Shown here: positions 11,071-58,668 of the stretch, one piece after another
Numbering within the stretch: position 1 is the stretch's first letter
Layout of the letters: each line of letters begins with the position of its first letter
Made by a program: the position numbers and the translations under genes
The notes under the pieces: model-generated
What the model saw: only the letters and a program-made list of their open reading frames with translations
What the model was told of the DNA's origin: nothing
Database searches by the model: none
DNA from: Squalus acanthias
Taxonomy: Eukaryota
Length of the DNA stretch: 64,000 bases
NCBI GenBank assembly: GCA_030390025.1
Contig: CM059431.1
Span: forward strand, 98,334,001 to 98,398,000
Direction of reading: 5' to 3'

Positions 11071-11980
11071 GAGAAAGAAAAAAAGACTTGCATTTCTATA
11101 GTGCCTTTCATAACCACCGGACGTCCCAAAGAGCTTTACAGCCAATGAAGTACTTTTAAAGTGTAATCACTGTTGTAATGTGGGAAACTCGGCATCCAAT
11201 TTGCGCACAGCAAGCTCCCACAAACAGCAATGTGACAATGACCAGATAATCTGTTTTAGTGCTATTGGACCCCAGGGAGAACTCCCCGTTCTTCTTTGAA
11301 ATAGTGTCATGCGATCTTTTACATCCACCTGAGAGAGCAGACGGGTCCTTGGTTTAACATCTCATCTGAAAGATGGCACCTCTGACAGTGCAGCACTCCC
11401 TCAGTACTGCCCCTCCGACAGTGCAGTTCTCCCTCAGTACTGCTCCTCCGACAGTGCAGCGCTCCCTCAGTACTGCCCTTCCGACAGTGCGGCGCTCCCT
11501 CAGTACTGCCCCTCCGACAGTGCAGCACTCCCTCAGTACTGCCTCTCTGACAGTGCGGCGCTCCCTCAGTACTGCCCCTCCGACAGTGCAGCGTTCTCTC
11601 AGTGCTGCTCCTCCGACAGTGCAGCGCTCCCTCAGTACTGCCCCTCCGACAGTGCAGCGGTCCCTCAGTACTGCCCCTCCGACAGTGCAGCGGTCCCTCA
11701 GTACTGCCCCTCCGATAGTGCGGTGCTCCCTCAGTACTGCCCTTCCAACAGTGCGGCGCTCCCTCAGTACTGCCCCTCCGACAGTGCAGCGCTCCCTCAG
11801 TACTGCCCCTCCGACAGTGCAGCGCTCCCTCAGTACTGCCCCTCCGACAGTGCAGCATTCCCTCAGTACTGCACTGGAGTGTCAGCCTAGATTTTTTGCT
11901 CAAGTCCCTGGAGTGGGACTTGAACCCACGATCTTCTGACTCAGAGGCGAGGGTGCTGCCCACTGAGCCACGGCTGACAT
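11071..11980 (-). mobile_element. SINE family A, full length, with internal 33-bp array (11379-11872, about 15 units)
   Basis: Head, array of GCAGTACTGAGGGAGYGCYGCACTGTCRGAGGG, Deu body and tail are all present on the minus strand. Confidence 0.92.
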
Positions 11981-12073
11981 GTGTCATGAGGTTTCATCAC
12001 ATGACCTCACAGCTCCAGTGTCCCCGCCCGGGCAAACAGCCTTGATCCCCCGTTTCCAATATTTTTATAACTA

Positions 12074-12437
12074 CAGGAAACTCTTTATTAACCGGCACCG
12101 ACAGGACCGGCGTGGTGCCGGTTAATCAAAAAGTCCGGATAACGGAGAGTTATATCTCCCAACGTACGAGAGCCCCGTACACACTGACATGCGCCTGCAT
12201 TCGGAGCTCCGTCTCCCCGGGGACCGCCAGCTGACCATCTGTCGTGACCGCTGCCTACCCGGGCTGCACATTCCCCTCCCAATCTACATGCTCCGATACA
12301 AGGCAAATGCCTTGGGGTTTTTTTTAAAGTTATTTTTAAAGGAGAGATGAAGGAAAACCCCGGTTACCTACTCAAGAATTTTGCCGGTTAAGAGAGATTT
12401 CCGGTTATTTGGGTGCCGGTTAAAAGAGAGTTTCCTG
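12074..12437. mobile_element. Tc1/mariner (Tigger/pogo-like) MITE
   Basis: TA|CAGGAAACTCTTTATTAACCGGCACC ... GGTGCCGGTTAAAAGAGAGTTTCCTG|TA: 26-bp TIR with 2 mismatches and a TA TSD. Confidence 0.9.
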
Positions 12438-12939
12438 TAATTAAAACAAGAAAATGGGAAAAAAAGACACTTCATTTTTTTAACACCCCTATAACTTTTC
12501 TCCCAGGTCCAGGGAGATTAATCTATAATAACCCTACCCTGCCCCCTCCACCCACCCCCACCCCTGCCCCACACACAAAGCAACCACAGAACTCCCAACT
12601 TAAACGCACCCCAGCTAGGCCCTGGCATTCCAGCCAACTCCTTACGGAGCACGTTCAGCATTACAGCAGTGGCTTTTCAGCCCCATTCTATTCCAGTTGG
12701 TGACACAGAGCGGGATTAAAACCGAGTGTTTTATTTGGGAATTTGGAAAGAGTGGGAATTCGGAGAAGAGAGGGAAGGAGTTGTTGCTTTTTGCCTCCAC
12801 TACTTGTAGTGCTTTGTGTTACAGGTAGATATTTAATTTCAATACCTTTAACTTAATCTAGCTCAAGTAAGTAGTCAAGAAACCACACTGTAAACTAAGT
12901 TAACTAATTACAAATTTAATTAAATAAAAAAATATAGGG

Positions 12940-13887
12940 ATGGCAGTGCAGGTGGTGTGCCGCAACTGCAGCATGTGGGAGTTTATGGAGAGCATTGTGA
13001 TCCCGGACAACCACGTTTGCAGTAAGTGCCTGCATTTTGAGGAACTTCAGCTCAGAGTTTTTGAGCTGGAGTCTGAGGTGCAGACATTGCGGAGCATCAG
13101 GGATGGGGAGAGTTACCTGGACACTTTGATCCAGGAGGCAGTCACACCCCTTAGGTTAGGTAGTGGTACAGGTCTGGTTAGTGGTCAGGGACAGGAGGGT
13201 GTAACTGCAACTCAGGCAGGTAAGGGGACCCCAGGTGCAGTTCTGGAGGAGCCTCAGCCTTTGCCCTTGTCCAACATGAGGTTCTTGCTGCCTGTGTGGA
13301 TGAGGGAAATGCCTGCATGATGGTTGAGCAAGCTGACCATGGTGCAGGAGGCCATTCAAGTGGAGGGAGTGAAAGGGAATGTAGTTGTGGTAGGGGACAA
13401 TATAGTCAGGGGGATAGATACTGTTCTCTGCAGCCGCGATCGAGAGTTCCGAAGGTTGTGTTGCCTGCCCGGTGCCAGGGTTAAAGACATCTCCTCGCGG
13501 CTGGAGGAGAATCTGGAGTGGGAGGGGGAGGATCCAGTTGTCGTGGTCCACGTAGGAACCAACGACATAGGTAGAACTAGGAATGAGGTTCTGCTGAGGG
13601 AGTTTGAGGAGCTAGGATCCAAATTAAAAAGCAAAACCTCAAAAGTAATAATCTCTGGATTGTTACCTGAGCCACGTGCAAATTGGCATAGGGACAAACA
13701 GATTAGAGGTTTAAATGCGTGGCTCAAAGAGTGGTGTGGGAGGAAGGGGTTTCAGTTGATGGGGCACTGGCACCAGTACTGGGGAAAGAGGGAGCTGTTC
13801 CGTTGGGACGGGCTCCACTTAAGCCGGGCTGGAACCAGTGTCCTGGCGAACCGAATAAATAGGGCAGTAGACAGGGCTTTAAACTAA
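12940..13887 (+). pseudogene. CR1 ORF1: zinc finger/leucine zipper + SGNH/GDSL esterase domain, frameshifted
   Basis: CRNC...CSKC plus heptad leucines (12940-13320). Esterase blocks VVVGDNIVRG, VVVHVGTND and DGLHL (13324-13887). Frame disruption near 13275-13330; the GDS serine reads as Asn. Confidence 0.9.
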
Positions 13888-15998
13888 TGAAGGGGGGGTG
13901 GGAGGATTCAGGAAAGAGTAAATTTAAAAGCAGCGAGAGAAATGCCAAGGCTCTAGAGCAGAGCAGAGTTTTGGGTAAATATAAGCAGAGTGGGTCAGGA
14001 AGGGACAGAGAGAGTAACAAAGGTAATAAGGAATTAGTGACTAAGGTGATAGCAGGGAAAAAGAGAAATAAGTCAAAGCTACAGGCACTATATCTAAATA
14101 CGCGAAGCATTTGCAACAAAATAGATGAATTAATAGCGCAAATAGAAATTTATAGGTTTGATCTAATAGCCATTACGGAGATGTGGTTGCAATGTGGCCA
14201 AGGTTGGGAACTAAATATTCCAGGTTACTTAACATTTAGAAGAGATAGGCAAAATGGAAAAGGACGAGGGGCAGCCCTAATAATAAAGGATGGGATAAAG
14301 ACAGTAGAAAGAAAGGATCTTAGCTCCGAAAATCAAGAAGTAGAATCAGTTTGGGTAGAGCTAAGAAACAGCAAGGGGCAGAAAACATTGGTGGGAGTTG
14401 TTTATAGGCCCTCAAACAGTAGTTGTAATGTAGGGCAGAGTAAAAATCAGGAAATTAGAGGCGCATGTAACAAGGGTAATACAGTAATCATGGGGGACTT
14501 TAATCTACATATAGACTGGGCAAACCAAATTTGCAGTAATAGTGTGGAGGACAATTTCATGGAATGTATGCAAGATAGTTTTCTAGATCAGTATGTTGAG
14601 GAACCAACTCGGGAACAGGCTATTTTAGATCTAGTATTGTGCAACGAGAAAGGGTTAATTAATAACCTTGTAGTAAAGGGGCCTTTAGGGAAGAGTGACC
14701 ATAATATGATAGAATTTTATATTGAGTTTGAAAGTGATTTAGTTAAATCCGAAACTAGGGTCTTAAATCTAAACAAAGCAAACTACATAGGTATGAGGGG
14801 CGAGTTGGCTAAGGTAGATTGGGAAACTACATTAAAAGGTATGACGGTAGAGAAGCAATGGCTAGCATTTAAAGAATTAATACATAATTTACAACAAATA
14901 TGCATTCCTTTAAGGCACAAAAACCCCACAGGAAAAGTAGCTAACCAGAGAAGTTAAAGGAAGTATTAGATCAAAGGAAGAGGCTTATAATGTTGCCAAA
15001 AAGAGTAGTAAGGCTGAGGATTGGGAGGATTTTAGAATTCAGCAAAGGAGGACCAAGAAATTGATGAAGAAAGGGAAAATAGAATATGAGAGTAAAATAG
15101 CGAGAGACGTAAAAACAGACTGTAAAAGCTTCTATAGGTATTTAAAAAGGAAAAGATTAGCGAAAGTAAATGTGGGTCCCTTACAGGCTGAGACAGGAGA
15201 AATTATAATGGGGAATAAGGAAATGGCAGAGAAATTAAACAAATACTTTGTGACTGTCTTCATGGAAGAAGACGCAAAAAACCTCCCGGAAATAGTGGAG
15301 AACCAAGGGTCTAGCGAGAATGAGGAACTGAAAGAAATTAGTATTAGTAAAAAAATAGTACTGGAGAAATTAATGGGACTGAAAAGCCGATAAATCCCCT
15401 GCAGTTGACGGCCTACATCCTAGGGTTTTGAAAGAGGTGGCTATAGAGATAGTGGATGCATTGGTTGTCATTTTCCAAAATTCCATAGATTCTAGAACGG
15501 TAACCGTGGATTGGAAGGTAGCAAATGTAACCCCACTATTTAAGAAAGTAGGGAGAGAGAAAACGGGGAACTACAAACCAGTTAGCCTGACATCAGTAGT
15601 AGGAAAAATGCTAGAATCCATTATTAAGGACATGGTAACAGGGCACTTAGAAAATAATAACAGGATTGGGCAGAGTCAACATGGATTTATCAAAGGGAAA
15701 TCATGTTTGATGAAACTGTTAAGAGTTTTTTTGAGGTTGTAACTAGCTGAATATATAAGGGGACACCAGTGGATGTGGTGCATTTGGATTTTCAGAAGGC
15801 ATTCGATAAGGTGCCACACAAGAGGTTATTAAACAAAATTAGGGCTCATGGGATTGGGAGTAATATATTAGCATGGATTGAGGATTGGTTAACAGACAGA
15901 AAACAGAGAGTAGGAATAAACGGGTCATTTTCGGGTTGGCAGGCTGTAACTAGTGGGGTACCGCAAGGATCAGTGCTTGGGTCTCAGCTATTCACAAT

Positions 15999-16250: not shown

Positions 16251-16285
16251 ATATCAATGATTTGGATGAGGGGACCAAATGTAAT

Positions 16286-18321: not shown

Positions 18322-19693
18322 AGTGTCAGCTTGGCTCAGTGAGTAGAATCTCGCGCCTCTGAGTCAGAAGGTCGTGGCTTCAAGCTTAGCTCCAGGATCT
18401 GAGCATATAATCCAGGCTGACACTTCAGTGAGGTACTGAGGTTGCGCCGCACTGTCGGAGGGGCAGTACTGAGGGAGCGCCGCACTGTCGGAGGGGCAGT
18501 ACTGAGGGAGCGCCGCACTGTCGGGGGGGCAGTACTGAGGGAGCGCTGCACTGTCGGAGGGGCAGTACTGAGGGAGCGCTGCACTGTCGGGGGGGCAGTA
18601 CTGAGGGAGTGCCGCACTGTCGGAGGGGCAGTACTGAGGGAGCACCGCACTGTCGGAGGGGCAGTACTGAGGGAGCGCCACACTGTCGGAGGGTCAGTAC
18701 TGAGGGAGCGCCGCACTGTCGGAGGGGCAGTACTGAGGGAGCGCCGCACTGTCGGAGGGTCAGTACTGAGGGAGCGCCGCACTGTCAGAGGGGCAGTACT
18801 GAGGGAGCGCCGCACTGTCGGGGGGGCAGTACTGAGGGAGCGCTGCACTGTCGGGGGGGCAGTACTGAGGGAGCGCTGCACTGTCGGGGGGGCAGAACTG
18901 AGGGAGTGCCGCACTGTCGGAGGGGCAGTACTGAGGGAGCACCGCACTGTCGGAGGGGCAGTACTGAGGGAGCACCACACTGTCGGAGGGTCAGTACTGA
19001 GGGAGCGCCGCACTGTCGGAGGGGCAGTACTGAGGGAGCGCCGCACTGTCGGAGGGTCAGTACTGAGGGAGCGCCGCACTGTCAGAGGGGCAGTACTGAG
19101 GGAGCGCTGCACTGTCGGAGGGGCAGTACTGAGGGAGCGCCGCACTGTCGGGGGGGCAGTACTGAGGGAGCGCGGCCCTATTGGAGGAGCAGCACTGAGG
19201 GAGCGTCGCACTGTCAGAGGGGCAGTACTGAGGGAGCGCTGCACTGTCGGAGGGTCAGTACTGAGGGAGCGCCGCACTGTCAGAGGGGCAGTACTGAGGG
19301 AGCGCTGCACTGTCGGAGGGTCAGTACTGAGGGAGCGCCGCACTGTTGGAGGGTCAGTACTGAGGGAGCGCCGCATTGTCGGAGGGGCAGTACTGAGGGA
19401 GCGCTGCACTGTCAGAGGGTCAGTACTGAGGGAGCGCCGCACTGTCGGAGGGTCAGTACTGAGGGAGCACCGCACTGTCAGAGGGTCAGTACTGAGGGAG
19501 CGCCGCATTGTCGGAGGGGCAGTACTGAGGGAGCGCTGCACTGTCAGAGGGTCAGTACTGAGGGAGTGCCGCACTGTCAGAGGGTCAGTACTGAGGGAGC
19601 GCCGCACTGTCGGAGGGTCAGTACTGAGGGAGCACTGCCCTATTGGAGGGGCAGCACTGAGGGAGCGCCGCACTGTCAGAGGGGCAGTACTGG
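18322..19693 (+). mobile_element. SINE family A head + 33-bp array (18433-19692, about 38 units), 3' body missing
   Basis: tRNA head at 18322-18430, then an uninterrupted 33-bp period (the 11-aa periodic ORFs). Confidence 0.92.
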
Positions 19694-20029
19694 GGGATTT
19701 GTGCACAGTTCACCACTGAAACGCTTGGAGCATGTTCCAGTATTGTTGGAATCTATGATTAATGTGAACATTGCATTTTATTCATCCAATTTGCTGAATT
19801 TTATTGTGAAACAGTCTCTGTTTCTCATTTGAGAATGAGTTATCTTCTTTAGATTTAAAAAATCTTTTTTTCCGGATTCCCATTGGTAGATGTTTAATCT
19901 CAAAAAACAAAAAGCAAAGAGACTTGAGCACCAGACCACCAGATCGCCCACAGTCCGTCCAATCTCCCACACCCCCGCCACACCCAGCCCACTCCGTTCA
20001 CACTCTGGCCCCTCTCGCTGGCCAGGTTG

Positions 20030-20739: not shown

Positions 20740-21510
20740 ACTGTGGGTCAGAGTCCCACTCCAGGACTTGAGTCCATAATCCAGGCTGACACTCCCAGTG
20801 CAGTACTGAGGGAGTGCTGCACTGTCAGAGGGGCAATACTGAGGGAGCGCTGCACTGTCTGAGGGGCAGTACTGAGGGAGTGCTGCACTGTCAGAGGGGC
20901 AATACTGAGGGAGCGCTGCACTGTCAGAGGGGCAGTACTGAGGGAGCGCATCACTGCCGGAGGGGCAGTATTGAGGGAGTGCTGCACTGTCGGAGGGGCA
21001 GTACTGAGGGAGCGCATCACTGCCGGAGGGGCAGTATTGAGGGAGCGCCGCACTGTCGGAGGGGCAGTACTGAGGAAGCGCTGCACTGTCGGAGGGGCAG
21101 TACTGAGGGAGCGCCGCACTGTCGGAGGGACAGTACTGAGGGAGTGCTGCACTGTCGGAGGGACAGTACTGAGGGAGCGCCGCACTGTCGGAGGTGCCGT
21201 CTTTCTGATGAGACATTAACTGAGGCCCCGTCTAATCTCTCAGGTGGACGTAAAAGATCCCATGGCACTATTCGAAGAAGAATTGGGGAGTTCTCCATGG
21301 TGTCCTGGACAATATTTATCCCTCAACCAACATCAGATTATCTGGTCATTATCAAATTGCTGTTTGTTTGATCTTGGTGTGTGCAAATTGGATGCCACGT
21401 TTCCTACATTACAACAGTGACTACACTTCCAAAAGTACTTCATTGGCTGTAAAGCGCTTTGGGACGTCCTGAGGTTGTGAAAGGTGATGAAGAAATGCAA
21501 GTCCTTTTTA
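20740..21510 (+). mobile_element. SINE family A with 33-bp array (20800-21194, about 12 units)
   Basis: Partial head, array, GGTGCCGTCTTTC Deu body and L2-like tail. Confidence 0.9.
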
Positions 21511-29182: not shown

Positions 29183-29249
29183 GACCGAACCAACGCAATT
29201 TCAAGCGCATTTTGGGCACAATGTCCCGAATGCTGCAATGGCAGAGTGA

Positions 29250-30395
29250 GGGGATCTATTACATCTACCTGAGAGGGCAGATGGGGCCTCGGTTTAATGT
29301 CTCATCGAAATAACGGCACCACTGACAGTGCGGCGCTCCCTCAGTACTGCCCCTCCGACAGTGCAGCGCTCCCTCAGTATTGCCCCTCCGACAGTGCGGC
29401 GCTCCCTCAGTACTGCCCCTCCGACAGTGCGGCGCTCCCTCAGTACTGCCCCTCCAACAGTGCGGCGCTCCCTCAGTACTGCCCCTCCGACAGTACGGCG
29501 CTCCCTCAGTACTGCCTCTCCGACAGTGCGGCGCTCCCTCAGTACTGCCCCTCTGACAGTGCAGCACTCCCTCAGTACTGCCCGTCCGACAGTGCAGCGC
29601 TCCCTCAGTACTGCCCCTCCGACAATGCAGCTCTCCCTCAGTACTGCCCCTCTGACAGTGCAGCACTCCCTCAGTACTGCCCCTCCGACAGTGCAGCACT
29701 CCCTCAGTACTGCCCCTCCGACAGTGCAGCACTCCCTCAGTACTGTCCCTCCGACAGTGCAGCGCTCCCTCAGTACTGCCCCTCCGACAGTGCAACGCTC
29801 CCTCAGTACTTCCCCTCCAACAGTGCAGCGCTCCCTCAGTACTGTCTCTCCGACAGTGCAGCGCACCCTCAGTACTGCCCCTCCGACAGTGCAGCACTCC
29901 CTCAGTATTGCCCCTCCGACAGTGCAGCGCTCCTTTAGTACTGTCCCTCCGACAGTGCAGCGCTCCCTCAGTACTGACCCTCCGACAGTGCGGCGCTCCC
30001 TCAGTACTGCCCCTCCGACAGTGCAGCACTCCCTCAGTACTGACCCTCCGATAGTGCAGCACTCCCTCAGTACTGCCCCTCCGACAGTGCAGCACTCCCT
30101 CAGTACTGCCCCTCCGACAGTGCAGCGCTTCCTCAGTACTGCCCCTCCGACAGTGCAGCTCTCCCTCAGTACTGTCCCTCCGACAGTGCAGCACTCCCTC
30201 AGTACTGCCCCTCCGACAGTGCAGCGCACCCTCAGTACTGCCCCTCCGACAGTGCAGCACTCCCTCAGTACTGCCCCTCCGACAGTGCAGCGCTCCCTCA
30301 GTACTGCCCCTCCGACAGTGCAGCACTCCCTCAGTACTGCACTGGGAGTGTCAGCTTAGATTTTGTGCTCAAGTCTCTGGAGTGGGACTTGAACC
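29250..30395 (-). mobile_element. SINE family A, partial, with 33-bp array (29322-30340, about 31 units)
   Basis: B box at about 30385-30395, then the array and the start of the Deu body. Confidence 0.92.
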
Positions 30396-31559: not shown

Positions 31560-32362
31560 GAGAAAGAATGAACTTGCATTTCTATAGCGCCTTTCATAAC
31601 CTTAGGACATCCCAAAGCGCTTTACAGCCAATGAAGTACTTTGGAAGTGTAGTCGCTGTTGTAATGGGGGAAACACAGCAGTCAATTTGTGCACAGCAAG
31701 CTCCCACAACCAGCAATGTGATAATGACCGGATAAACTGTTTTAGGAATGTTGGTTGAGGGATAAATATTGTCCAGAACACCAGGGAGAACTCCCCTGAT
31801 CTTCTTCAAAATAGTGGCCATGGGATCTTTGACATTCACCTGAGAGAGCAGATGGGGCCTCGGTTTAACGTCTCATCTGAAAGACGGCACCTCCGACAGT
31901 GCGGCACTCCCTCAGTACTGCCCCTCAGACAGTGCAGCACTCCCTCAGTACTGCCCCTCCGACAGTGCAGCACTCCCTCAGTACTGCCCCTCCGACAGTG
32001 CGGCGCTCCCTCAGTACTTCCCCTCCGACAGTGCGGCGCTCCCTCAGTACTGCCCCTCCGACAGTGCAGCGCTCCCTCAGTACTGCCCCTCCGACAGTGC
32101 GGGGCTCCCTCAGTACTGCCCCTCTGACAGTGCAGCGCTCCCTCAGTACTGCCCCTCTGACAGTGCAGCGCTCCCTCAGTACTACCCCTCTGACAGTGCA
32201 GCGCTCCCTCAGTACTGCCCCTCCGACAGTGCAGCGCTCCCTCAGTACTGCACTGGGAGTGTCAACCTAGATTTTTGTTGCCAAGTCTCTGGAGTGGGAC
32301 TTGAACCCACAACCTTCTGACTCCGAGGTGAGAGTGCTGCCCACTGAGCCACAGCTGACACA
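31560..32362 (-). mobile_element. SINE family A, full length, with 33-bp array (31890-32251, about 11 units)
   Basis: Head, array, body and tail all present. Confidence 0.93.
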
Positions 32363-37370: not shown

Positions 37371-38305
37371 ATGTCAGCCGTGGCTCAGTGGGCAGCACTC
37401 TCGTTTCTGAGTCAGAACATCGTGTGTTCAAGTCCCCACTCCAGAGACTTGAGTCCATATTCCAGGCTGATACTCCCAGTGCAGTACTGGGGGAGCGCCG
37501 CACTGTGGGAGGGGCAGTACTGAGGGAGCGCCGCACTGTCGGAGGGGCAGTACTGAGGGAGCGCCGCACTGTGGGAGGGGCAGTACTGAGGGAGCGCCGC
37601 ACTGTCGGAGGGGCAGTACTGAGGGAGCGCCGCACTGTCGGAGGGGCAGTACTGAGGGAGCGCCGCACTGTGGGAGGGGCAGTACTGAGGGAGCGCCGCA
37701 CTGTGGGAGGGGCAGTACTGAGGGAGCGCCGCACTGTGGGAGGGGCAGTACTGAGGGAGCGCCGCACAGTGGGAGGGGCAGTACTGAGGGAGCGCCGCAC
37801 TGTCGGAGGGACAGTACTGAGGGAGCGCTGCACTGTCGGAGGGGCAGTACTGAGGGAGCGCTGCACTGTCGGAGGGGCAGTACTGAGGGAGCGCTGCACT
37901 GTCGGAGGGGCAGTACTGAGGGAGCGCCGCACTGTCGGAGGGGCAGTACTGAGGGAGTGCTGCACTGTCGGAGGTGCCGTCTTTCGGATAAGACGTTAAA
38001 CCGAGGCCCGTCTGCCCTCTCAGTTGGGGGTAAAAGATCCCATGGCACTATTTCGAAGAAGAGCAGGAGAGTTCTCCCCAGTATCCTGGGGCCAATATTT
38101 ATCCCTCAACCAACATCACTAAAACAGATGGTCTGGTTATTATCACGTTGCTGTTTGTGGGAGCTTGCTGTGCGCAAATTGGCTGCCATGTTTCCTACAT
38201 TACAACAGTGACCGCACTTCAAAAAGTACTTTATTGGCTGTAAAGCACTTTGGGACGTCTGGAGGTGGTGAAAGGCGCTGGAGAAATGGCAGTACTTTTT
38301 CTTTC
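37371..38305 (+). mobile_element. SINE family A (tRNA head + Deu domain + L2-like tail), full length, with 33-bp array (37481-37974, about 15 units)
   Basis: A box TGGCTCAGTGG, B box GTTCAAGTCC, array, GGTGCCGTCTTTCGGATAAGACGTTAAACCGAGG...AAAGATCCCATGGCAC (Deu-domain-like), tail. Confidence 0.93.
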
Positions 38306-38479
38306 ACAGACAGTTTTTGCAAAGAGCTCAAAATGATTCTGTGTGATATCAGTAATGAAAGTGTTAACATGCAAACAAATTAACACTTACATTAAAACCA
38401 CAGACGAGGGTTTTGGTGCTAACCCTTTAGCAAGTTCCTCACTAATATTGCGCAGGATTTTTTATATTTGTTCTCAGCA

Positions 38480-39490
38480 TGTGGACGATGCATCATTGCC
38501 CATCCCTAGCTGCCCTGCGACGGTGGTAGTGGGGATTCTCCTTCAACCACTTCAATCAACGTCAGCGGTCATTGAATGGACCATGTAGTGTGTGGACTGG
38601 AGTCACGTGTAGGCCAGTGGGTAGAGCTGTAAGGATCTGTAAGGATATGGGTAGAGCTGTAAGGAGCTGTAAGGCCAGTGGGTAGAGCTGTAAGGAGCTG
38701 TAAGGATATGGGTAGAGCTGTAAGGAGCTGTAAGGCCAGTGGGTAGAGCTGTAAGGATCTGTAAGGACAGTGGGTAGAGCTGTAAGGAGCTGAGGTTAGT
38801 GGATAGAGCTGTAAGGAGCTGTAAGGATAGTGGGTAGAGCTGTAAGGAGCTGTAAGGATAGTGGGTAGAGCTGTAAGGAGCTGTAAGGCCAGTGGGTAGA
38901 GCTGTAAGGAGCTGTAAGGCCAGTGGGTAGAGCTGTAAGGCCAGTGGGTAGAGCTGTAAGGAGCTGTAAGGATAGTGGGTAGAGCTGTAAGGAGCTGTAA
39001 GGACAGTGGGTAGAGCTGTAAGGAGCTGTAAGGACAGTGGGTAGAGCTGTAAGGAGCTGTAAGGATAGTGGGTAGAGCTGTAAGGAGCTGTAAGGACAGT
39101 GGGTAGAGCTGTAAGGAGCTGTAAGGCCAGTGGGTAGAGCTGTAAGGAGCTGTAAGGCCAGTGGGTAGAGCTGTAAGGAGCTGTAAGGATAGTGGGTAGA
39201 GCTGTAAGGAGCTGTAAGGACAGTGGGTAGAGCTGTAAGGAGCTGTAAGGCCAGTGGGTAGAGCTGTAAGGAGCTGTAAGGCCAGTGGGTAGAGCTGTAA
39301 GGAGCTGTAAGGATATGGGTAGAGCTGTAAGGAGCTGTAAGGAGCTGTAAGGACCCCCTCCCTCAAGGACATTAGTGAATCTGCTGGATTTTTATCACCA
39401 TTTTTCCCTCCTCGTGCTCGACCTCAAAATTACCAGATTTATCCAATTCAGTTTCACAACTTGCCCTGGTGGAAATTTGAACTCAGAAAT
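38480..39490 (-). mobile_element. SINE family B, degenerate, with internal 31-bp array
   Basis: Flanks GGAGTCACGTGTAGGCCAG and AAGGACATTAGTGAA are near neighbours in the intact copy at 56640-56710. Confidence 0.75.
38612..39353. repeat. 31-bp minisatellite (about 24 units) with an internal duplicated 10-mer
   Basis: Unit CCAGTGGGTAG-AGCTGTAAGG-AGCTGTAAGG. Confidence 0.95.
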
Positions 39491-41875: not shown

Positions 41876-44526
41876 CCCGATTTACACCGCACCCGATTTA
41901 CACCGCACCCGATTTACACCCCCGATTTAAACCCCCCCGATTTACACCGCACCCGATTTACACCCCCGATTTACACCGCCCCCGATTTACACCCCCCCCG
42001 ATTTACACCGCACCCGATTTACACCCCCCGATTTACACCCCCCGATTTACACCCCCCGATTTACACCCGACCCGATTTACACCCCCCGATTTACACCGCA
42101 CCCGATTTACACACAATCGATTTACACCGCACCCGATTTACACCCCCCGATTTACACCGCACCCGATTTACACCCCCCGATTTACACCCCCGATTTACAC
42201 CCCCCGATTTACACACGCCCGATTTACACCCGGCCCGATTTACACCCCCCGATTTACACCGCACCCGATTTACACCCCCCGATTTACACCGCACCCGATT
42301 TACACCTCCCCCCGATTTACACCCCCGATTTACACCCCCCCGATTTACACCCCTCGATTTACACCCCCCGATTTACACCCCCGATTTACACCCCCGATTT
42401 ACACCCCCGATTTACACACGCCCGATTTACACCGCACCCGATTTACACCGCACCCGATTTACACCCCCCCGATTTACACCCCCGATTTACCCCCCGATTT
42501 ACACCGCACCCGATTTACACCGCACCCGATTTACACCGCACCCGATTTACACCCCCCGATTTACACCGCACCCGATTTACACCGCACCCGATTTACAACC
42601 CCCCGATTTACAACCCCCCGATTTACCCCCCCCGATTTACACCCCCCGATTTACACCGCACCAGATTTACACCCCCGATTTACACCCCCCGATTTACACC
42701 CCCCGATTTACACCCCGATTTACACCCGGCCCGATTTACAACCCCCCGATTTACACCCCCCCCCGATTTACACCCCCCCGATTTACAACCCCCCGATTTA
42801 CACCCCCCCCCCGATTTACACCCCCCCGATTTACACCCCCCGATTTACACCCCCCGATTTACACCCCCGATTTACACCCCCCGATTTACACCCCCCCGAT
42901 TTACCCCCCCCCCGATTTACACCCCCCCGATTTACACCGCACCAGATTTACACCCCCCGATTTACACCCCCCGATTTACACCCCCGATTTACACCACCCG
43001 ATTTACACCCCCCCGATTTACACCACCCGATTTACACCCCCCGATTTACACCCCCCGATTTACACACCCGATTTACACCCCCCCGATTTACACCCCCCCC
43101 GATTTACACCCCCGATTTACCCCCCCCGATTTACACACGCCCGATTTACACCCCCCCGATTTACACCCCCCGATTTACACCCCCCAATTTACACCCCCCC
43201 CCCCGATTTACACCCCCCCGATTTACACCCCCGATTTACACCCCCCCGATTTACACCCCCCCGATTTACACCCCCCCCGATTTACACCACCGATTTACAC
43301 ACCCCCCCCCGATTTACACCCACCCGATTTACACCCCCGATTTACACCCCCCCGATTTACACGTCCGATTTACACCCCCCCGATTTACATCCCCCCGATT
43401 TACACCCCCCCGATTTACACCCCCCGATTTACACCCCCCCGATTTACACCCCCCCCCCCCGATTTACACCCCCCCGATTTACACCCCCCCCCCCCGATTT
43501 ACACCCCCCCGATTTACACCCCCCCGATTTACACCCCCGATTTACACACCCCCGATTTACACCCCCCCGATTTACACCCCCCCGATTTACACCCTCCCGA
43601 TTTACACCCCCGATTTACACCCCCGATTTACACACCCCCGATTTACACCCCCCCGATTTACACCCCCCCGATTTACACCCTCCCGATTTACATCCCCCCG
43701 ATTTACACCCCCCCCCCGATTTACACCCCCCCGATTTACACCCCCCCGATTTACACCCCCGATTTACACACCCCGATTTACACCCCCCCGATTTACGCCC
43801 CCCGATTTACACCCCCCCGATTTACACCCCCCGATTTACACCCCCGATTTACACCCCCGATTTACACCCCCCGATTTACACCCCCCGATTTACACCCCCG
43901 ATTTACACCCCCCGATTTACACCCCCCGATTTACACCGCACCCGATTTACACCCCCCGATTTACACCCCCGATTTACACCCCCCGATTTACACCCCCCGA
44001 TTTACACCCCCGATTTACACCCCCCGATTTACACCCCCCGATTTACACCCCCCGATTTACACCGCCCGATTTACACCCGCCCGATTTACACCCGCCCGAT
44101 TTACACCCGCCCGATTTACACCCTCCGATTTACACCCCCGATTTACACCCGCCCGATTTACACCCCCGATTTACACCCCCCGATTTACACCCCCCCGATT
44201 TACACTCCTCCGATTTACACCCCACCTGATTTACACCCCACCTGATTTACACCCCCCGATTTACACCCCACCTGATTTACACCGCACCCGATTTACACCC
44301 CCCTGATTTACACCCCCGATTTACACCCCACCCGATTTACACCCCACCTGATTTACACCCTCGATTTACACCCCCGTTTTACACCCCCCGTTTTACACCC
44401 CCCGATTTACACCCACCTGATTTACACCCTCGATTTACACCCCCGTTTTACACCCCCCGTTTTACACCCTCGATTTACACCCCCGTTTTACACCCCTCGA
44501 TTTACACCCACCTGATTTACACCCCC
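41876..44526. repeat. C-rich minisatellite, unit mostly 13-17 bp (C)nGATTTACA, about 2.65 kb
   Basis: Near-invariant GATTTACA core separated by variable C runs or CCGCACCC. Confidence 0.97.
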
Positions 44527-45139: not shown

Positions 45140-46352
45140 TTAATCCAGGCTGACACTCCCAGTAGAGTACTGAGGGAGCGCCGCACTGTCGGAGGGGCAG
45201 TACTGAGGGAGTGCCGCACTGTCGGAGGGGCAGTACTGAGGGAGCACTGCACTGTCGGAGGGGAAGTACTGAGGGAGCGCTGCACTGTCGGAGGGGCAGT
45301 ACTGAGGGAGCGCTGCACTGTCGGAGGGGCAGTACTGAGGGAGCGCTGCACTGTCGGAGGGGCAGTACTGAGGGAGCGTTGCACTGTCGGAGGGGCAGTA
45401 CTGAGGGAGTGCTGCACTGTCGGAGGGGCAGTACTGAGGGAGCGGGGCACTGTCGGAGGGGCAGTACTGAGGGAGCGCTGCACTGTCGGAGGGGCAGTAC
45501 TGAGGGAGCGCTGCACTGTCGGAGGGCAGTACTGAGGGAGCGCTGCACTGTCGGAGGGGAAGGACTGAGGGAGTGCAGCACTGTCGGAGGGGAAGTACTG
45601 ACGGAGTGCCGCACTGTCGGAGGGGCAGTACTGAGGGAGCGCCGCACTGTCAGAGGGGCAGTACTGAGGGAGTGCCGCACTGTCGGAGGGGAAGTACTGA
45701 GGGAGTGCCGCACTGTCAGAGGGGCAGTGCTGAGGGAGTGCTGCACTGTCAGAGGGGCAGTGCTGAGGGAGCGCTGCACTGTCGGAGGGGAAGTACTGAG
45801 GGAGCGCCGCACTGTCGGAGGGACAGTACTGAGGGAGTGCTGCACTGTCAGAGGGGCAGTGCTGAGGGAGCGCCGCACTGTCGGAGGGGCAGTACTGAGG
45901 GAGCGCTGCAATGTCGGAGGGGAAGTCCTGAGGGAGCGCTGCACTGTCGGAGGGGCAGTGCTGAGGGAGCGCCGCACTGTCGGAGGGGCAGTATTGAGGG
46001 AGTGCCGCACTGTCAGAGGTGCCGTCTTTCGGATGAGACGTTAAACCGAGGCCTCGTCTGCTCTCTCAGGTGGACGTAAAAGATCCCACGGCCACTATTT
46101 TGAAGAAGAGCAGGGGATTTCTCCCTGGTGTCCTGGGGCCAATATTTATCCCTCAACCAACATCAGTGAAACAGATTATCTGGTCATTATTACATTGCTG
46201 TTTGTGGGAGCTTGCTGTGCGCAATTTGACTGCCGCGTTTCCTACATTACAACAGTGACCACACTTCAAAAAGTACTTCATTGGCTGTGAAGCGCTTTAG
46301 GACTTTCTGAGGTGGTGAAAGGCGCTGTAGAAATGCGAGTCTTTTTTTCTTT
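45140..46352 (+). mobile_element. SINE family A lacking its tRNA head, with 33-bp array (45165-46019, about 26 units)
   Basis: TAATCCAGGCTGACACTCCCAGT, array, complete Deu body and tail. Confidence 0.92.
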
Positions 46353-47239: not shown

Positions 47240-47910
47240 GCTGGGAAGTCTAGAACTAGAGGTTGCAGTCTCAATAAGGGGTCGGCCATTTAGGACTGAA
47301 ATGAGGAGGAATTTCTTCACTCAGAGGGTTGTGAATCTTTGGAATTCTCTACCTCAGAGGGCTGTGGATGCTGAGTCGTTGAGTATATTCAAGGCTGAGA
47401 TCGATAGATTTTTGGACTCATGGGGAATCAAGGGAGATGGAGATCGGGCGGGAAAGTGGAAATGAGGTCGAAGATCAGCCATGATCTGATTGAATGGCTC
47501 AAGGGGTCGAAGGGCGGAGCAGGCTCGAGGGGTTGAAGCAGGCTCAAGGGGTCGAAGGGCGGAGCAGGCTCGAGGGGTCGAAGGGCGGAGCAGGCTCGAG
47601 GGGTCGAAGGGCGGAGCAGGCTCGAGGGGTCGAAGGGCGGAGCAGGCTCGAGGGGTCGAAGGGCGGAGCAGGCTCGAGGGGTCGAAGGGCGGAGCAGGCT
47701 CGAGGGGTCGAAGGGCGGAGCAGGCTCGAGGGGTCGAAGCAGGCTCGAGGGGTCGAAGGGCGGAGCAGGCTCGAGGGGTCGAAGGGCGGAGCAGGCTCGA
47801 GGGGTCGAAGGGCAGAGCAGGCTCAAGGGGTCGAAGGGTGGAGCAGGCTCAAGGGGCCGAATGGCGGAGCAGGCTCGAGGGGCCGAATGGCCGACTCCTG
47901 CTCTTATGTA
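47240..47910 (+). mobile_element. CR1 3' fragment with 26-bp array (47492-47891, about 15 units) in the 3' UTR
   Basis: QRVVNLWNSLP. Unit GAAGGGCGGAGCAGGCTCGAGGGGTC corresponds to the UTR segment GAATGGCGGAGCAGGCTCGAGGGGCC. Confidence 0.92.
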
Positions 47911-49320: not shown

Positions 49321-49707
49321 GGATTAGATACAGAGTAAAGCTCCCTCTACACTGTCCCATCAAACACTCCCAGGGCGGGTACAGCATGGGGTTAGAAACG
49401 GAGTAAAGCTCCCTCTACACTGTCCCATCAAACACTCCCAGGGCAGGTACAGCACGGGTTAGATACAGAGTAAAGCTCCCTGTACACTGTCCCATCAAAC
49501 ACTCCCAGGGCAGGTACAGCACAGGTTAGATACAGAGTATAGCTCCCTGTACACTGTCCCATCAAACACTCCCAGGGCAGGTACAGCACGGGTTAGATAC
49601 AGAGTAAAGCTCCCTGTACACTGTCCCATCAAACACTCCCAGGGCAGGTACAACACGGGTTAGATACAGAGTAAAGCTCCCTCTACACTGTCCCATCAAA
49701 CACTCCC
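49321..49707. repeat. 67-bp tandem repeat (about 5.7 units)
   Basis: Unit GGGTTAGATACAGAGTAAAGCTCCCTSTACACTGTCCCATCAAACACTCCCAGGGCAGGTACAGCAC. Confidence 0.95.
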
Positions 49708-49869
49708 AAAGAACTTCTGGAAAGAAAAACTATTAAAAATATTGTGTATACATGCACTTCCCATTGTTACGATTTTTGGGCACGTTTTTATAACATACAA
49801 CATTGAAACTCCCTATGTAAACATTTAGAATAGGAATTCTGGATGTAAACAGTCACTGTAACAGTATAG

Positions 49870-49898
49870 CTGCAGACTCTGGCCAGTAGGTGGCATTG
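49870..49898 (+). promoter_or_regulatory. Candidate CTCF site with upstream (U) motif
   Basis: CTGCAGACTC-TGGCCAGTAGGTGGCATTG fits the CCASYAGRKGGC core plus upstream TGCAG. Motif match only. Confidence 0.55.
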
Positions 49899-53082: not shown

Positions 53083-53116
53083 ATAAACCAAGTCATAGAA
53101 AGAGTGAAAAACAGGA

Positions 53117-53815
53117 AATAAGAACATAAGAAATAGGAGCAGGAGTCGGCCATTCAGCCCCTCGAGCCTGCTCCACCATTCAATAAGATCATGGGTGATC
53201 ATCGACCTCAACTCCACTTTCCTGCACTATCCCCATATCCTTTAGTTCCCTTAATATTCAAAAATCTATTGATCCCTGTCTTGAATATACTCAATGACTG
53301 AGTCTCCACAGCCCTCTGGGGTAGAGAATTCCACAAAGATTCACCACCCTCTGAGTGAAGAAATTTCTCCTCATCTCAGTCCTAAATGGCCGACCCCTTA
53401 TTCTGAGACTGTGACCCCTGGTTCTAGACTCCCCAGCCAGGGGAAACATCCTCCCTGCATCTACCCTGTCAAGCCCTGTAAGAATTTTGTATGTTTCAAT
53501 GAGATCACCTCTCATTCTTCTAAACTCTAGAGAGTAGAGGCCTAGTCTACTCAATCTCTCCTCATAGGACAATCCCCCCATCCCAGGAACCAATATGGTG
53601 AACCTTCATTGCACTCCCTCTATGGCAAGTATATCCTTCCTTAGATAAGGAGACCAAAACTGTACACAATACTCCAGGTGTGGTCTCACCAGGGCCCTAT
53701 ATAATTGCAGTAAGACATCTTTACTCTTATACTCAAATCCTCTTGTAATAAAGGCCAACATACCATTTGCTTTCCTAATTGCTTGTTGTTCCTGCATGTT
53801 AACTTTCAGTGACTC
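53117..53815 (-). mobile_element. CR1 3' fragment, closely similar to the 3' end of the element at 12700-18001
   Basis: ORFs 53606-53797 and 53291-53593 (-) nearly match ORF 17159-17707. Confidence 0.93.
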
Positions 53816-55219: not shown

Positions 55220-56162
55220 CTGATTTAGACTTTGGAATCAAAAACGCAATTTCTAAATTTGCAGATGACACCAAATTGGGGGGATAGTCAATACTGAGGA
55301 GGACTGCAACAAATTGCAAGAAGACATGAATAAACTTGCAGAATGGGCATATAATTGGCAAATTAAGTTCAACACAGATAAATGTGAGGTATTACATTTT
55401 GGTAAGAAAAATAGGGAGTTCACATATTACTTGGAAAATAAGAATCTAAATGGGGTAGAGGAACAAAGGGATCTCGTTGTACAAATACACAAATCACTAA
55501 AAGTAGTGACACAGGTTAACAAGGCCATTAAAAAAAAGCAAACCAAGCACTAGGGTTTATTTCTAGAGGGATAGAATTGAGGAGTAGTGAAGTTAAGCTA
55601 AACCTGTATCGAACCTTGGTTAGACCACACTTGGAGTACTGCGTACAATTCTGGTCGCCATATTATAAAAAGGATATAGAGGCACTGGAGAGGGTGCAGA
55701 GAAGATTTACAAGGATGATACCAGAAATGCGAGGGTATACCTATCAGGAAAGGATGAACAGGCTGGGTCTGTTTTCCCTTGAAAAGAGAAGGCTGAGGGG
55801 TGACCTAATAGAGGTTTTTAAAATCATGAAAGGTTTTGATGGAGTGGATACAGAGAGAGTATTTCCACTTGTGGGGAAGAGCAAAACTAGAGGCCATCAA
55901 TATAAGATAGTCACCAAGAAATCCAATAGGGAATTCAGAAGAAATTTCTTTACCCAGAGAGTGGTGATAATGTGGAACTCGCTACCACAGGGAGTGGTTG
56001 AAGCGAATAGTATAGATGCATTTAAGGGCGATTAGATAAGCATATGAGGGAGAAGGGAATAGAAGGTTATGCTGATAGAGTTAGATGAGGAAAGACGGGA
56101 GGGGGCTCGAGTGGAGCATAAACACCGAATGGCCTGTTTCTGAGCCGTATATCCTATGTACA
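55220..56162 (+). mobile_element. CR1 3' fragment nested in a minus-strand SINE A (55150-55215 + 56170-56360)
   Basis: KFADDTKLG, KCEVLHFG, LVRPHLEYCVQFWSPY, WNSLP. The SINE tail and body resume on either side. Confidence 0.92.
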
Positions 56163-56491
56163 TCCAATTAAGTACTGTCACTGTTGTAATGTAGGAAACG
56201 CAGCAGCCAATTTGTGCACAGCAAGATCCCACAAACAGCAATGAGATAAATGTTTTAGTGATGTTGGTTGAGGGATAAATATTGGCCCAAGACACTGGGG
56301 AGAACTCCCCTGCTCTTTTTTGAATAGTGCTGTGAGAGGGCAGACGGGGCCTCGGTTTAGTGAGGCGAGAGGCGACACCTTCTTTCAATGATATTGACAG
56401 ATCTCTCACACAGAGGGGGCTTTCAGGCCAATGAATGCTCGACCTTACGATTAGAGTGTGGTGTAAACTCTAAATCGGCATTAGGGTAGAA

Positions 56492-56905
56492 ATTTTTTTT
56501 CATTCGTTCATGGGATGTGGGTGTCACTGGCAAGGCCAGCATTTATTGCCCATCCCTAATTGCCCTTGAGAAGGTGGTGGTGAGCCGCCTTCTTGAACCA
56601 TAGAGGGCAGTTAAGAGTCAACCACATTGCTGTGGGTCTGGAGTCACCTATAGGCCAGACCGGGTAAGGACGGTAGATTTCCTTCCCTAAGAAAAGGACA
56701 TTAGTGAACCAGATGGGTTTTTACAATAATCCAGTAGCTTTATGGTCATCATTACTGACACTAGCTTTTTATCCCAGATTTATTTAATTAACTGAATTTA
56801 AATTCCCCAACTGCCGTGGTGGGATTTGAGCTTGTGTCTCTGGATTATGAGTCCAGTAACATAACCACTACGCTACCGTACTCCTGCATTATGCTACCGT
56901 ACTCC
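56492..56905 (-). mobile_element. SINE family B, full length (tRNA-like head, LINE-derived tail)
   Basis: Minus strand: GGTAGCGTAGTGGTTA (A box), GCTCAAATCCC (B-box-like), body, GGTTCAAGAAGGCGGCTCACCACCACCTTCTCAAGGGCAA...poly(A). Confidence 0.85.
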
Positions 56906-57885
56906 TAAATAAAGCTAAGGCCGTGATAACTATCGTTAAAATACAAAGCAGTGTCTGGACAATGTTTCTGCTGTTCTTGGAAGCCACGGTGAGCTCATCC
57001 AGTTCCACACTCTGTGCCAAAAACACATTGGAAATGACTGAAGTGTGTACACTCGGGGTCGTCAACTAGGGTTGGACGTATTCCTGGAGGTTTCATCACA
57101 TGACCTCCCACCTCCAACACTCCCGCCAACTTCACCCAACACGACCATCCCCGCGGCAACCCTCCTTCCCACAGCCAATTGGAAAGCCAACAGACTCTTT
57201 GTTACCTGATTGGACGATTCTAGACTGTCAGTCAAACGGCCTTTTTAATCTGCCGCACTGCTGTCACTCTGAGCAGGTCCCAGGCAGAATGTTGAATTCT
57301 TAAAGCTGAAATTTTATCAGCCAACACACATAGCAGGAAGGAGGCTGGCCACAGGAGCCTGAGAACGGTCTCACTGCCAAGTCCTTGGTTTCAGAGTTTG
57401 GTAAAACCACAAACCCTTCATAAACTGTTTCACATGTTTGCAATGAGAAGACTTAGAGGCCAGTTACACTAGTCACAGCTTCCAAAAAAGAAAGAAATGC
57501 TTTGCATTGACTCAGGAACCAGAGGAGACCTCAGTTCCCAGGCACAGTGGGGCAAGAAGCCTCACCACCACCTTCTCAAGGGCAACAAAGGAATGGAAAT
57601 AAATGCCGGCCTTGCCAGTGACGCCCACATCCTGAGAATGAACATTAAAAAAATGACCTGAAAGATAACCCCCAGTGTTTCGCTGCCGGTTTGTGTTGAA
57701 TTGAATGAGCGACGGGCACCAATTGGAAGATTCTCTCTGGACTTTTCCCCAGGAGCCTCCCAGAGGTGTGTGTGCCTGAGAGGAGAGAGGTGCACCCAGG
57801 GTCATTGACCAACCTGGGCACCTTCTCACGGCTCACTCCCTGGTATGGTCTTGCACTGGGATTGAGGGGGACGGAAACAGCAGCA

Positions 57886-58668
57886 TAATGCCGCGGAATC
57901 TTTAGCGTCTATCCGAGAGGGCAGACCGTGCCTCGACTTAACGTCACAGCCGAAAGACGGCACCTCCGACAGAGCAGCGCTCCCTCAGTGCTGCATCTCC
58001 GACAGTGCAGCGCTCCCTCAGTGCTGCATCTCCGACAGTGCAGCGCTCCCTCAGTACTGCCCCTCCGACAGTGCAGCGCTCCCTCAGTACTGCCCCTCCG
58101 ACAGTGCAACACTACCTCAGTACTGCCCCTCCCACAGTGCGGCACTCCCTCAGTACTGCCCCTCCGACAGTGCAGTGCTCCCTCAGTACTCTCCCTCCGA
58201 CAGTGCTGCGCTCCCTCAGTACTGCCCCTCCGACCATGCGGCACTCCCTCAGTACTGTCCCTCCGACAGTGCGGCGTTCCCTCAGTACTGTCCCTCCGAC
58301 AGTGCAGCACTCCCTCAGTACTGTCCCTCCGACAGTGCGGCGTTCCCTCAGTACTGCCCCTCCGACAGTGCAACGCTCCCTCAGTACTGCCCCTCCGACA
58401 GTGCAGCACTCCCTCAGTACTGCCCCTCCGACAGTGCAACGCTCCCTCAGTACTGCCCCTCCGACAGTACGGCACTCCCTCAGTACTGCCCCTCCGACAG
58501 TGCGGCGCTCTCTCAGTAATCCGAGAGAAGAAGAGCAGGGGGAGTTCTCCCCAGCGTTCTGGGGCCAATATTTATCACTCAACCAACGTCACTAAAACAT
58601 GATCTGGTCATTATCACATTGCTGTTTGTGGGAGCTTGCTGTGCGTAGATTGGCTGCCGCGTTTCCCT
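57886..58668. mobile_element. SINE family A with 5' inversion; 33-bp array 57963-58518 (about 17 units)
   Basis: 57886-58518 is in minus orientation and 58527-58668 in plus orientation; the break points are adjacent in the intact element. Confidence 0.85.

What the first reader, a model, noticed from the sequence alone, without database searches (positions are those of the whole stretch)
11379..58518. SINE family carrying an expandable 33-bp hairpin array at one fixed internal position
Eight copies of SINE A hold about 11-38 tandem units (about 5.4 kb in total) between the tRNA head and the Deu body: 11379, 18433, 20800, 29322, 31890, 37481, 45165 and 57963. The copy at 3180 has one unit and the copy at 7163 has no array. 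The single-unit segment CAGTGCAGTACT-GAGGG-AGTGCTGCACTG is a 12-bp stem-loop bounded by the microhomology GTGCAGT/GTGCCGT. Inference: the SINE seeds minisatellites at many loci, and a Pol III transcript would be a multi-hairpin RNA of variable length. The arrays lack TTTT terminators.
Basis: partly seen in the sequence, partly recalled or inferred. Interest (0 to 1): 0.7.

Follow-up and report, generated by a model that had tools for sequence, protein, structure and literature searches.

The report
Shark SINE-derived 33-base minisatellite family
A common short jumping repeat in this shark-type genome has a 33-base piece that has grown into tandem arrays at many places, all sharing one tell-tale base change; this extends a pattern already described in snakes and lizards and is not a chain of RNA hairpins.

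Summary
The eight arrays are real: 165 units of 33 bp, 5,440 bp, all ending or starting at the same site of a tRNA-headed Deu-SINE, exactly at the 5' border of the Deu domain. Only 3 of 8 keep both a full head and a full body. Contigs from runs of three coded organisms hold both the tandem junction and single-unit copies, so this is no assembly artefact.

First, 151 of 156 internal junctions carry G where both flanking microhomologies carry T, so the arrays look like descendants of one duplication, not fresh births at each locus. Second, that change breaks the 12-bp stem: it is perfect in 2 of 7 first units, and only 32 of 140 internal units form the hairpin.

Units of different loci are more alike (4%) than their host SINEs (13%), though the strictest test is not significant. 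Best reading: one array-bearing SINE lineage, spread by retrotransposition, then expanded and homogenised in place; ectopic conversion is the main rival. Closest known: SINE-derived satellites of squamates. Similar units stand unrecognised in a bamboo-shark satellite table. New member of a known kind.

The parts
11873..11980 (-). tRNA-like head (A and B box) of copy 11379
11379..11872 (-). 33-bp array, 15 units
11070..11378 (-). Deu body and LINE-like tail of copy 11379
18324..18429 (+). decayed head (A box only, about 18% from majority) of copy 18433; no body follows the array
18433..19697 (+). 33-bp array, 38 units plus a part unit; units 3-11 duplicated as units 12-20
20742..20799 (+). 5'-truncated head of copy 20800
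20800..21194 (+). 33-bp array, 12 units
21195..21509 (+). Deu body and tail of copy 20800
30341..30394 (-). truncated head (B-box part) of copy 29322
29322..30340 (-). 33-bp array, 31 units
29245..29318 (-). first ~75 nt of the Deu body of copy 29322
32252..32360 (-). head (A and B box) of copy 31890
31890..32251 (-). 33-bp array, 11 units
31561..31889 (-). Deu body and tail of copy 31890 (one TTTT inside the body)
37371..37480 (+). head (A and B box) of copy 37481
37481..37974 (+). 33-bp array, 15 units
37975..38310 (+). Deu body and tail of copy 37481
45141..45163 (+). last 23 nt of the head of copy 45165
45165..46019 (+). 33-bp array, 26 units (one of 32 bp)
46020..46352 (+). Deu body and tail of copy 45165
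57963..58518 (-). 33-bp array, 17 units, cut inside a unit at the head side; the two junctions nearest the body carry T
57885..57962 (-). first ~77 nt of Deu body (about 20% from majority) of copy 57963
3180..3440 (+). old single-unit SINE copy; unit at 3279-3311
7163..7476 (+). SINE copy with a partly deleted, decayed unit; no array
3713..4014 (-). SINE copy whose unit and first ~115 nt of body are deleted

Best explanation
A SINE-derived minisatellite family with one main origin.

Step 1 (anatomy shown, event inferred). The 33-bp linker between the tRNA head and the Deu domain is bounded by a 7-bp microhomology and holds a quasi-palindrome, so it duplicates easily by slippage or unequal exchange.

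Step 2 (shared base shown, single origin inferred). One duplicated lineage gained T>G at the junction.

Step 3 (inferred). Source copies with two or more such units were transcribed by Pol III (no T-run in the array) and copied by the partner LINE, which put the same junction at many loci, much as SVA or EhSINE1 carry internal repeats.

Step 4 (block duplication shown, bias inferred). Each locus then expanded or shrank by unequal exchange. Identical neighbouring units exchange best, so the majority unit is renewed and arrays stay closer to one consensus than their hosts do. Collapse between the first and last unit would restore the single-unit form without a scar. No RNA function is needed.
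For: G at 151 of 156 internal junctions in all 8 arrays, against T in 7 of 7 left flanks and 7 of 7 terminal units. The same G junction is the loose-end consensus in contigs of organisms A, B and D (1010, 649 and 535 records). Tail shared with the window's LINE 3' ends. A and B boxes in 3 array-bearing copies; no T4 in the arrays. Copies 20800 and 45165 lack the 5' part of the head but keep the full tail, the usual shape of truncated retrotranspositions. A nine-unit block is duplicated in 18433. Unit distance is below flank distance in 18 of 18 locus pairs, 4.3% against 12.9% (10 of 28 pairs dropped for fewer than 60 comparable flank sites). The one single-unit copy is decayed in its unit too (5 of 26 non-CpG sites).
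Against: Neutral inheritance from a master predicts units as diverged as their hosts, so step 4 needs a bias that I did not measure. Old hosts (18433 head 18%, 57963 body 20%) carry young-looking arrays (3% and 5%), which fits conversion equally well. Variants shared between arrays slightly exceed a simple null (37 against 26.9 +/- 5.1, p=0.04). Single-unit copies are plentiful in the same runs (755, 1258 and 1288 head-joined loose ends). No target-site duplication was found in 5 of 5 copies checked. There is no transcript evidence, and no whole genome was available to count two-unit copies. With the strictest flank measure the age gap vanishes (3.2% against 2.7%, p=0.30).
Confidence: 0.47

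Rival explanations
1. Array invasion by ectopic gene conversion. The G-junction array arose once and is copied into already inserted single-unit SINEs, and between arrays, by non-allelic recombination that uses head, unit and Deu homology. This gives concerted evolution across dispersed loci without retrotransposition of the array.
For: Units are more alike between loci than the hosts are (18 of 18 pairs). Within-array and between-array unit distances are nearly equal (0.053 against 0.055, permutation p=0.23). Old hosts carry young-looking arrays. A two-site junction variant is shared by 11379 and 18433. Hosts differ at sites that look subfamily-diagnostic (by eye). Squamate sSats show the same between-locus uniformity and are subtelomeric.
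Against: The excess of shared variants is weak (p=0.04) and could be mutation hot spots. 45165 keeps only 23 nt of head and 57963 none, which leaves little homology on that side. Majority-biased turnover inside each array gives the same low divergence. Treating each array as one draw, the age gap is significant only if hosts are 5.5% or more from their master (p=0.045 at 5.5%, 0.14 at 4.5%).
Confidence: 0.3
2. Independent births with a sequence filter (closest to the first reader). Each locus duplicates by slippage to give a T junction, and only loci that later gain G there, making a second G-run per unit, expand, perhaps through G-quadruplex-driven instability.
For: With G the arrays hold about twice as many G3 runs, and loose four-tract G4 patterns appear (4-18 per array against 0-2 with T put back in silico). 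An unrelated 26-bp array from a LINE tail at 47496 also has G at 12 internal junctions, where its own edges (3) and six single-copy tails have T. T junctions exist: 2 of 156 in the window and a minor loose-end class in X1 (247 records, agreement 0.53).
Against: It needs the same transversion at eight loci and in three organisms. G4Hunter means are only 0.66-0.84, and at most 14% of windows reach 1.2. The bamboo-shark 33-bp satellite expanded with a T-rich junction (by eye), so G is not required.
Confidence: 0.13
3. Functional multi-hairpin Pol III RNA of variable length.
For: No TTTT in the arrays; two copies could be read through to the tail. Units with TG at positions 16 and 19 do fold well (z down to -6 in 29322).
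Against: The junction change and the CG variants weaken the stem: 32 of 140 internal units form it, and 2 of 35 windows beat a tandem-preserving null. The whole copy folds at z=0.22. Stem strength follows C/T variation at CpG sites, the usual mark of methylated, decaying DNA. 5 of 8 copies lack a complete promoter. No Rfam or ARAGORN hit.
Confidence: 0.06
4. Assembly artefact.
For: No read or contig spanning a whole array was seen: the stretch laid held only two units and the body, and no listed piece spans it.
Against: Units carry locus-specific variants and block duplications. The tandem junction is the deepest part of the stretch in contigs of three organisms; one of them, A, may be the assembly's own source.
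Confidence: 0.02

Closest known systems
SINE-derived satellites (sSat1-3) of squamate reptiles (Vassetzky et al. 2023, PMC10702118; parts 1-4 of 5 read, supplements not read)
   Same: Tandem arrays of an internal SINE segment with SINE sequence continuing at the ends. One dominant variant over many loci and species (snake sSat3). Units more alike than the SINEs (89% against 64% in cobra). Locus-specific alternating variants.
   Different: Unit is 33 bp against about 70-290 bp. Here 6 of 8 arrays keep SINE sequence on both sides, a minor form in squamates. Another SINE family and taxon; the authors left open whether sSats occur outside squamates. Subtelomeric location could not be tested here.
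SacSINE1 and related Deu-SINEs of cartilaginous fish (Luchetti et al. 2017, PMC5499810: parts 1-2 of 6 and a term search; Nishihara et al. 2006 not read)
   Same: tRNA-like head, Deu domain, tail shared with a LINE 3' end, single-unit length about 460 nt.
   Different: The paper has no mention of tandem, minisatellite, hairpin or VNTR. The SacSINE1 consensus itself was not available for alignment.
EhSINE1 of Entamoeba histolytica (Huntley et al. 2010, PMC2996970; passages)
   Same: SINE with a variable number of 26-27 nt internal repeats at one place; two-repeat copies retrotranspose as such.
   Different: One to four repeats, never five or more; here 11-38. Not a Deu-SINE.
B1- and Alu-derived minisatellites and the Haber-Louis birth model (seen only as summarised and cited in the review PMC6947457; passages)
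   Same: Minisatellites that grow out of a SINE at a site flanked by 5-10 bp direct repeats.
   Different: Other SINE types and units. A shared derived junction was not discussed in the passages seen.
Y-chromosome satellites 3951_rep269 and 2318_rep65 of the white-spotted bamboo shark (Wu et al. 2024, PMC11406177, Table S6; first 400 characters of each cell seen)
   Same: By eye, a 33-bp and a 23-bp periodic sequence built on the same segment; GTACTGAGGGAG occurs in both rows.
   Different: T-rich junctions (GGAGGGGCAG not found in the letters shown), more diverged, listed as anonymous satellites with no SINE link. Compared by eye only, not aligned.
SVA VNTR of hominoids (recalled, no call)
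   Same: A GC-rich VNTR carried inside a non-autonomous retroposon, varying in length by locus.
   Different: SVA is a composite, L1-mobilised element; no sequence relation is claimed.

Membership tests
Deu-SINE superfamily | Central Deu domain | tested here: met
   The Deu alignment in Kojima 2020, Fig. S4 begins at GTGCCGTC. By eye the window's majority body matches the AmnSINE1 row at 32 of the first 33 letters. Two short Deu motifs hit 6 times each, against 0.00 and 0.10 by chance.
tRNA-derived SINE (SINE2) | tRNA-like head with A and B boxes | tested here: met
   Both boxes in 11379, 31890, 37481, 3180 and 7163. No intact tRNA by ARAGORN or Rfam, so the parent tRNA was not identified.
tRNA-derived SINE (SINE2) | 3' tail shared with a partner LINE | tested here: met
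   The last ~60 nt align with two LINE 3' ends in the window; an RVT_1 domain lies upstream of one. The clade name L2 is recalled and taken from PMC5499810, not tested.
tRNA-derived SINE (SINE2) | Target-site duplications | tested here: inconclusive
   Longest shared words are 4-6 nt in 5 of 5 copies. Copies are old, and L2-type insertions often lack them (recalled).
SacSINE1 | Identity to the SacSINE1 consensus over head, Deu and tail | not testable with these tools
   No Repbase or Dfam. The supplement of PMC5499810 could not be read; that of PMC5804259 holds no Deu entry.
SINE-derived satellite (sSat) | [quoted passage not shown] | tested here: met
   9-36 middle units in 8 of 8 arrays; the unit equals the single-copy linker at 3279-3311.
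SINE-derived satellite (sSat) | Terminal units continue into the SINE | tested here: met
   Both sides in 6 of 8, one side in 2 of 8.
SINE-derived satellite (sSat) | Units more uniform within and between loci than the SINEs | tested here: inconclusive
   Met in 18 of 18 pairs and at 2.7% against 8.3%; not significant under the strictest flank measure.
SINE-derived satellite (sSat) | Subtelomeric enrichment | not testable with these tools
   No genome held. The window is 16% tandem repeat at about 49% GC, which fits but does not show it.
Retrotransposing element with internal VNTR (EhSINE1 or SVA type) | Multi-unit form is itself transcribed and inserted | not testable with these tools
   Needs a census of young copies and transcript data; only compatibility is shown.
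Structured non-coding RNA | Stable, repeated, conserved stems | tested here: not met

The most novel reading that the evidence does not exclude
The G-junction array is a self-spreading passenger of the SINE. Born once, it converts already inserted single-unit copies and renews itself between unlinked loci by ectopic recombination, so that many dispersed SINE copies in several shark-type genomes evolve in concert at one 33-bp module while their flanks decay. That would be a natural system, with built-in dated controls, for measuring non-allelic gene conversion in a slowly evolving vertebrate genome.
Probability: 0.25. Interest if true: 0.62.

Novelty: new member of a known kind. Interest (0 to 1): 0.33.

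Why it matters
It answers, for cartilaginous fish, a question the squamate sSat paper left open: SINE-derived tandem arrays are not confined to reptiles. It may name the source of part of the tandem-repeat load reported for small shark chromosomes and chromosome ends; this one family is 8.5% of the window. The shared junction base is a simple marker for telling single origin from repeated birth, and each array comes with its own host SINE as an age control. In practice the arrays give long open frames (up to 466 codons) that can mislead gene prediction, and they are candidate multilocus markers. No functional role is indicated.

Tried and rejected
Whole-genome census: no genome is held. Pattern scans of viral, metagenome and prokaryote contigs: 0 matches each. 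Protein search with an array translation: 2 weak, unrelated low-complexity hits among 7,999 candidates scored, so no taxon names came by that road. ARAGORN and Rfam: nothing.

Run X23 (raw reads): 67 of 10,085,944 reads laid, 6 with the go-back joint and 7 with head loose ends. This is trace material of unknown origin and is not used as support. Summed contig depth at the junction is 7.4, 2.3 and 3.8 times the best body bin in X1, X6 and X11, but the tool states that this is no copy number and that some counts were incomplete, so I use it for presence only.

G-quadruplex as the driver: weak scores and a counter-example. Twin-priming origin of 57963: the geometry fits, but the two pieces differ in age (19% against 6.5% from majority), so it is not used. 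A first tail alignment used wrong coordinates for one LINE end and was redone. Earlier findings by sequence and by relatives: nothing.

Not in print, as far as searched: ten full-text searches, one of them for three unit motifs (0 papers), found no description of this array in a shark SINE. Repbase, Dfam, subscription journals, bioRxiv supplements and the Luchetti supplement could not be seen and may hold it.


Full report
SETTING. The window is almost all repeats: LINE fragments with reverse-transcriptase, endonuclease and esterase domains, about twenty pieces of one SINE family and 10.1 kb (16%) of tandem arrays. That it comes from a cartilaginous fish is my inference from the SINE's make-up, from look-alike satellites in a bamboo shark and from earlier notes on this genome (unchecked). 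No call names the organism.

OBSERVATION. All eight arrays are present, with 15, 38, 12, 31, 11, 15, 26 and 17 units, 165 in all, 5,440 bp. They share one register. The left edge follows the head's CAGT in 7 of 8 and the right edge runs into the body in 7 of 8. The right microhomology is the first word of the Deu domain as aligned in the supplement of Kojima 2020 (PMC7245038, passages and Fig. S4). A 22-nt Deu-start motif hits six times, each at an array's last base, with none expected by chance. So the unit is the linker between head and Deu domain. The hosts are less complete than stated: 3 of 8 have a full head and body, 18433 has no body and 57963 has no head. Of 11 copies in which the site can be judged, 8 carry arrays, one has a single unit (3180) and two have lost part or all of it (7163, 4014). 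No unit lies outside a SINE in the window.

HOST ELEMENT. A and B boxes are present in five copies, three of them array-bearing. The last 60 or so bases align with the 3' ends of two LINEs in the window. This is the plan given for SacSINE1: tRNA head, Deu domain, L2-shared tail (PMC5499810, parts 1-2 of 6). I could not align to the SacSINE1 consensus, so 'SacSINE1-like' is as far as the tests go.

NOT AN ARTEFACT, NOT ONE SPECIES. Fourteen runs of five coded organisms in five studies hold at least half of the 102 words of one locus. I laid three contig runs (organisms A, B, D) and one raw run on the last two units plus body of copy 37481. 357,118 of 51.4 million, 279,313 of 48.5 million and 219,855 of 22.3 million records were laid. 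In all three the unit-unit junction is the deepest part. Loose ends behind the last unit continue as G plus another unit (1010, 649, 535 records), and loose ends before it read as the head (755, 1258, 1288), that is, most likely single-unit copies. The tool says that some counts were incomplete and that depth is no copy number, and A may be the assembly's own source. This shows presence in at least two further organisms, not frequencies, and no whole array was spanned.

THE JUNCTION. Both microhomology copies have T before GC: 7 of 7 left flanks and 7 of 7 terminal units. Plain slippage between them gives a T junction. Instead 151 of 156 internal junctions have G, 3 have A and 2 have T (one 32-bp unit left out). 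All eight arrays share the G form. The simplest reading is one duplication lineage. Against this, a 26-bp array from a LINE tail at 47496 shows the same kind of change (G at 12 junctions, T at its edges and in six single-copy tails), so a general bias towards G at such junctions cannot be excluded.

HAIRPINS. The 12-bp stem uses four bases of the head and exists only in the first unit. It is perfect in 2 of 7 first units (-19.7 kcal/mol as RNA), imperfect in four and absent in one. The other 157 units have a median of -6.7. In four-unit windows the loop-closing pair is likely in 32 of 140 units; 13 of 35 windows beat dinucleotide shuffles, but only 2 of 35 beat a null that keeps the tandem structure. 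A full 801-nt copy folds like its shuffles (z=0.22, 20 shuffles). Folding strength follows C/T variation at two CpG sites. The palindrome may have helped the first duplication; it is not what the array preserves.

AGE OF ARRAYS AND HOSTS. Internal units differ from one global consensus at 109 of 3,996 non-CpG sites (2.7%), flanks from their majority at 172 of 2,078 (8.3%). In gap-free, CpG-masked pairwise comparisons unit distance is below flank distance in 18 of 18 locus pairs, 4.3% against 12.9% (10 of 28 pairs dropped for too few flank sites; pairs are not independent). The result is not bullet-proof. Counting only private flank changes gives 54 of 1,663 (3.2%), not different from the units (p=0.30), although that rule undercounts. 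Treating each array as one draw, the gap is significant only if hosts are 5.5% or more from their master. Within-array and between-array distances are nearly equal (p=0.23), yet local growth is plain: units 3-11 of 18433 recur as units 12-20.

HOW IT MOST LIKELY WORKS. Shown: a duplication-prone linker, one shared derived junction, local block duplications, an intact route for Pol III and LINE copying in some copies, and presence in three organisms. Inferred: one origin, dispersal by retrotransposition of multi-unit sources, then turnover that favours the majority unit (0.47). Ectopic conversion into existing copies explains young arrays in old hosts as well (0.30). Repeated birth with a filter for G (0.13), a functional RNA (0.06) and artefact (0.02) are less likely. 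The two leading routes can both act.

WHAT IS KNOWN. Vassetzky et al. 2023 (PMC10702118) describe SINE-derived satellites in squamates: arrays of an internal SINE part, one dominant variant across snake genomes, units at 89% against SINEs at 64%, subtelomeric, with both SINE ends kept only in a minority. They call it uncertain whether such arrays occur outside squamates. EhSINE1 carries one to four 26-27 nt repeats (PMC2996970, passages). B1- and Alu-derived minisatellites and the short-flanking-repeat birth model are summarised in PMC6947457 (passages); the primary papers were not read. Zebra-shark work reports more simple tandem repeats on small chromosomes, without naming their source in the passages seen (bioRxiv 10.1101/2022.10.17.512540). 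Passages of the whale-shark (PMC13100897), dogfish (PMC10468316) and MetaSINE (PMC4824008) papers do not mention the array. Table S6 of Wu et al. 2024 (PMC11406177) lists two Y satellites that, by eye, are a 33-bp and a 23-bp version of the same segment with T-rich junctions. So relatives of the unit are in print as anonymous satellites, the segment has apparently given rise to arrays more than once in sharks, and a G junction is not required for growth.

VERDICT. A real, abundant SINE-derived minisatellite family, apparently undescribed as such in sharks (ten searches, listed under Tried and rejected; Repbase and Dfam not seen). It works like the squamate sSats and meets their structural tests, differing in its short unit and in keeping both SINE ends. 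The RNA reading is not supported. New member of a known kind; interest 0.33. It would be higher if conversion between unlinked loci were shown.

Noticed in passing
window 47496-47891: A 26-bp array grown from a LINE 3' tail (CR1-type by recall). Its internal junctions have G (12) where its edges (3) and six single-copy tails have T, the same direction of change as in the SINE arrays; mean G4Hunter 1.13.
   Followed up: partly
window 1537-2029: A 51-bp array, 9.7 copies at 99%, made from a LINE coding segment whose sequence continues on the right: a recent locus-specific expansion.
   Followed up: partly
window 38611-39353, 41876-44526, 49324-49708: Further arrays of 31/10 bp, 14-15 bp (2.65 kb, starting inside a LINE-like end) and 67 bp; with the others they make 16% of the window. 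Their origins were not worked out.
   Followed up: no
window 57885-58666: Array plus first ~77 nt of body on the minus strand, joined to body positions ~81-221 on the plus strand: the geometry of a 5'-inverted insertion, but the two pieces are 19% and 6.5% from the majority. The two junctions nearest the body keep T.
   Followed up: partly
window 5150-5918 (minus strand): A SINE body and tail run directly into the last ~500 nt of a LINE on the same strand. It may be a SINE-LINE chimera or two neighbouring insertions; earlier notes on this genome describe SINE-headed LINEs.
   Followed up: no
window 3903-3897 junction (minus strand): The deletion in copy 4014 starts at the end of the left microhomology, again pointing to this site as fragile.
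   Followed up: no
window 61720-62880 (minus strand): A 386-codon open frame with no Pfam hit; possibly part of a DNA transposon, not examined.
   Followed up: no
all eight arrays: 33 is a multiple of three and five of six frames stay open over long stretches, giving ORFs up to 466 codons of 11-residue repeats: a trap for gene prediction.
   Followed up: partly
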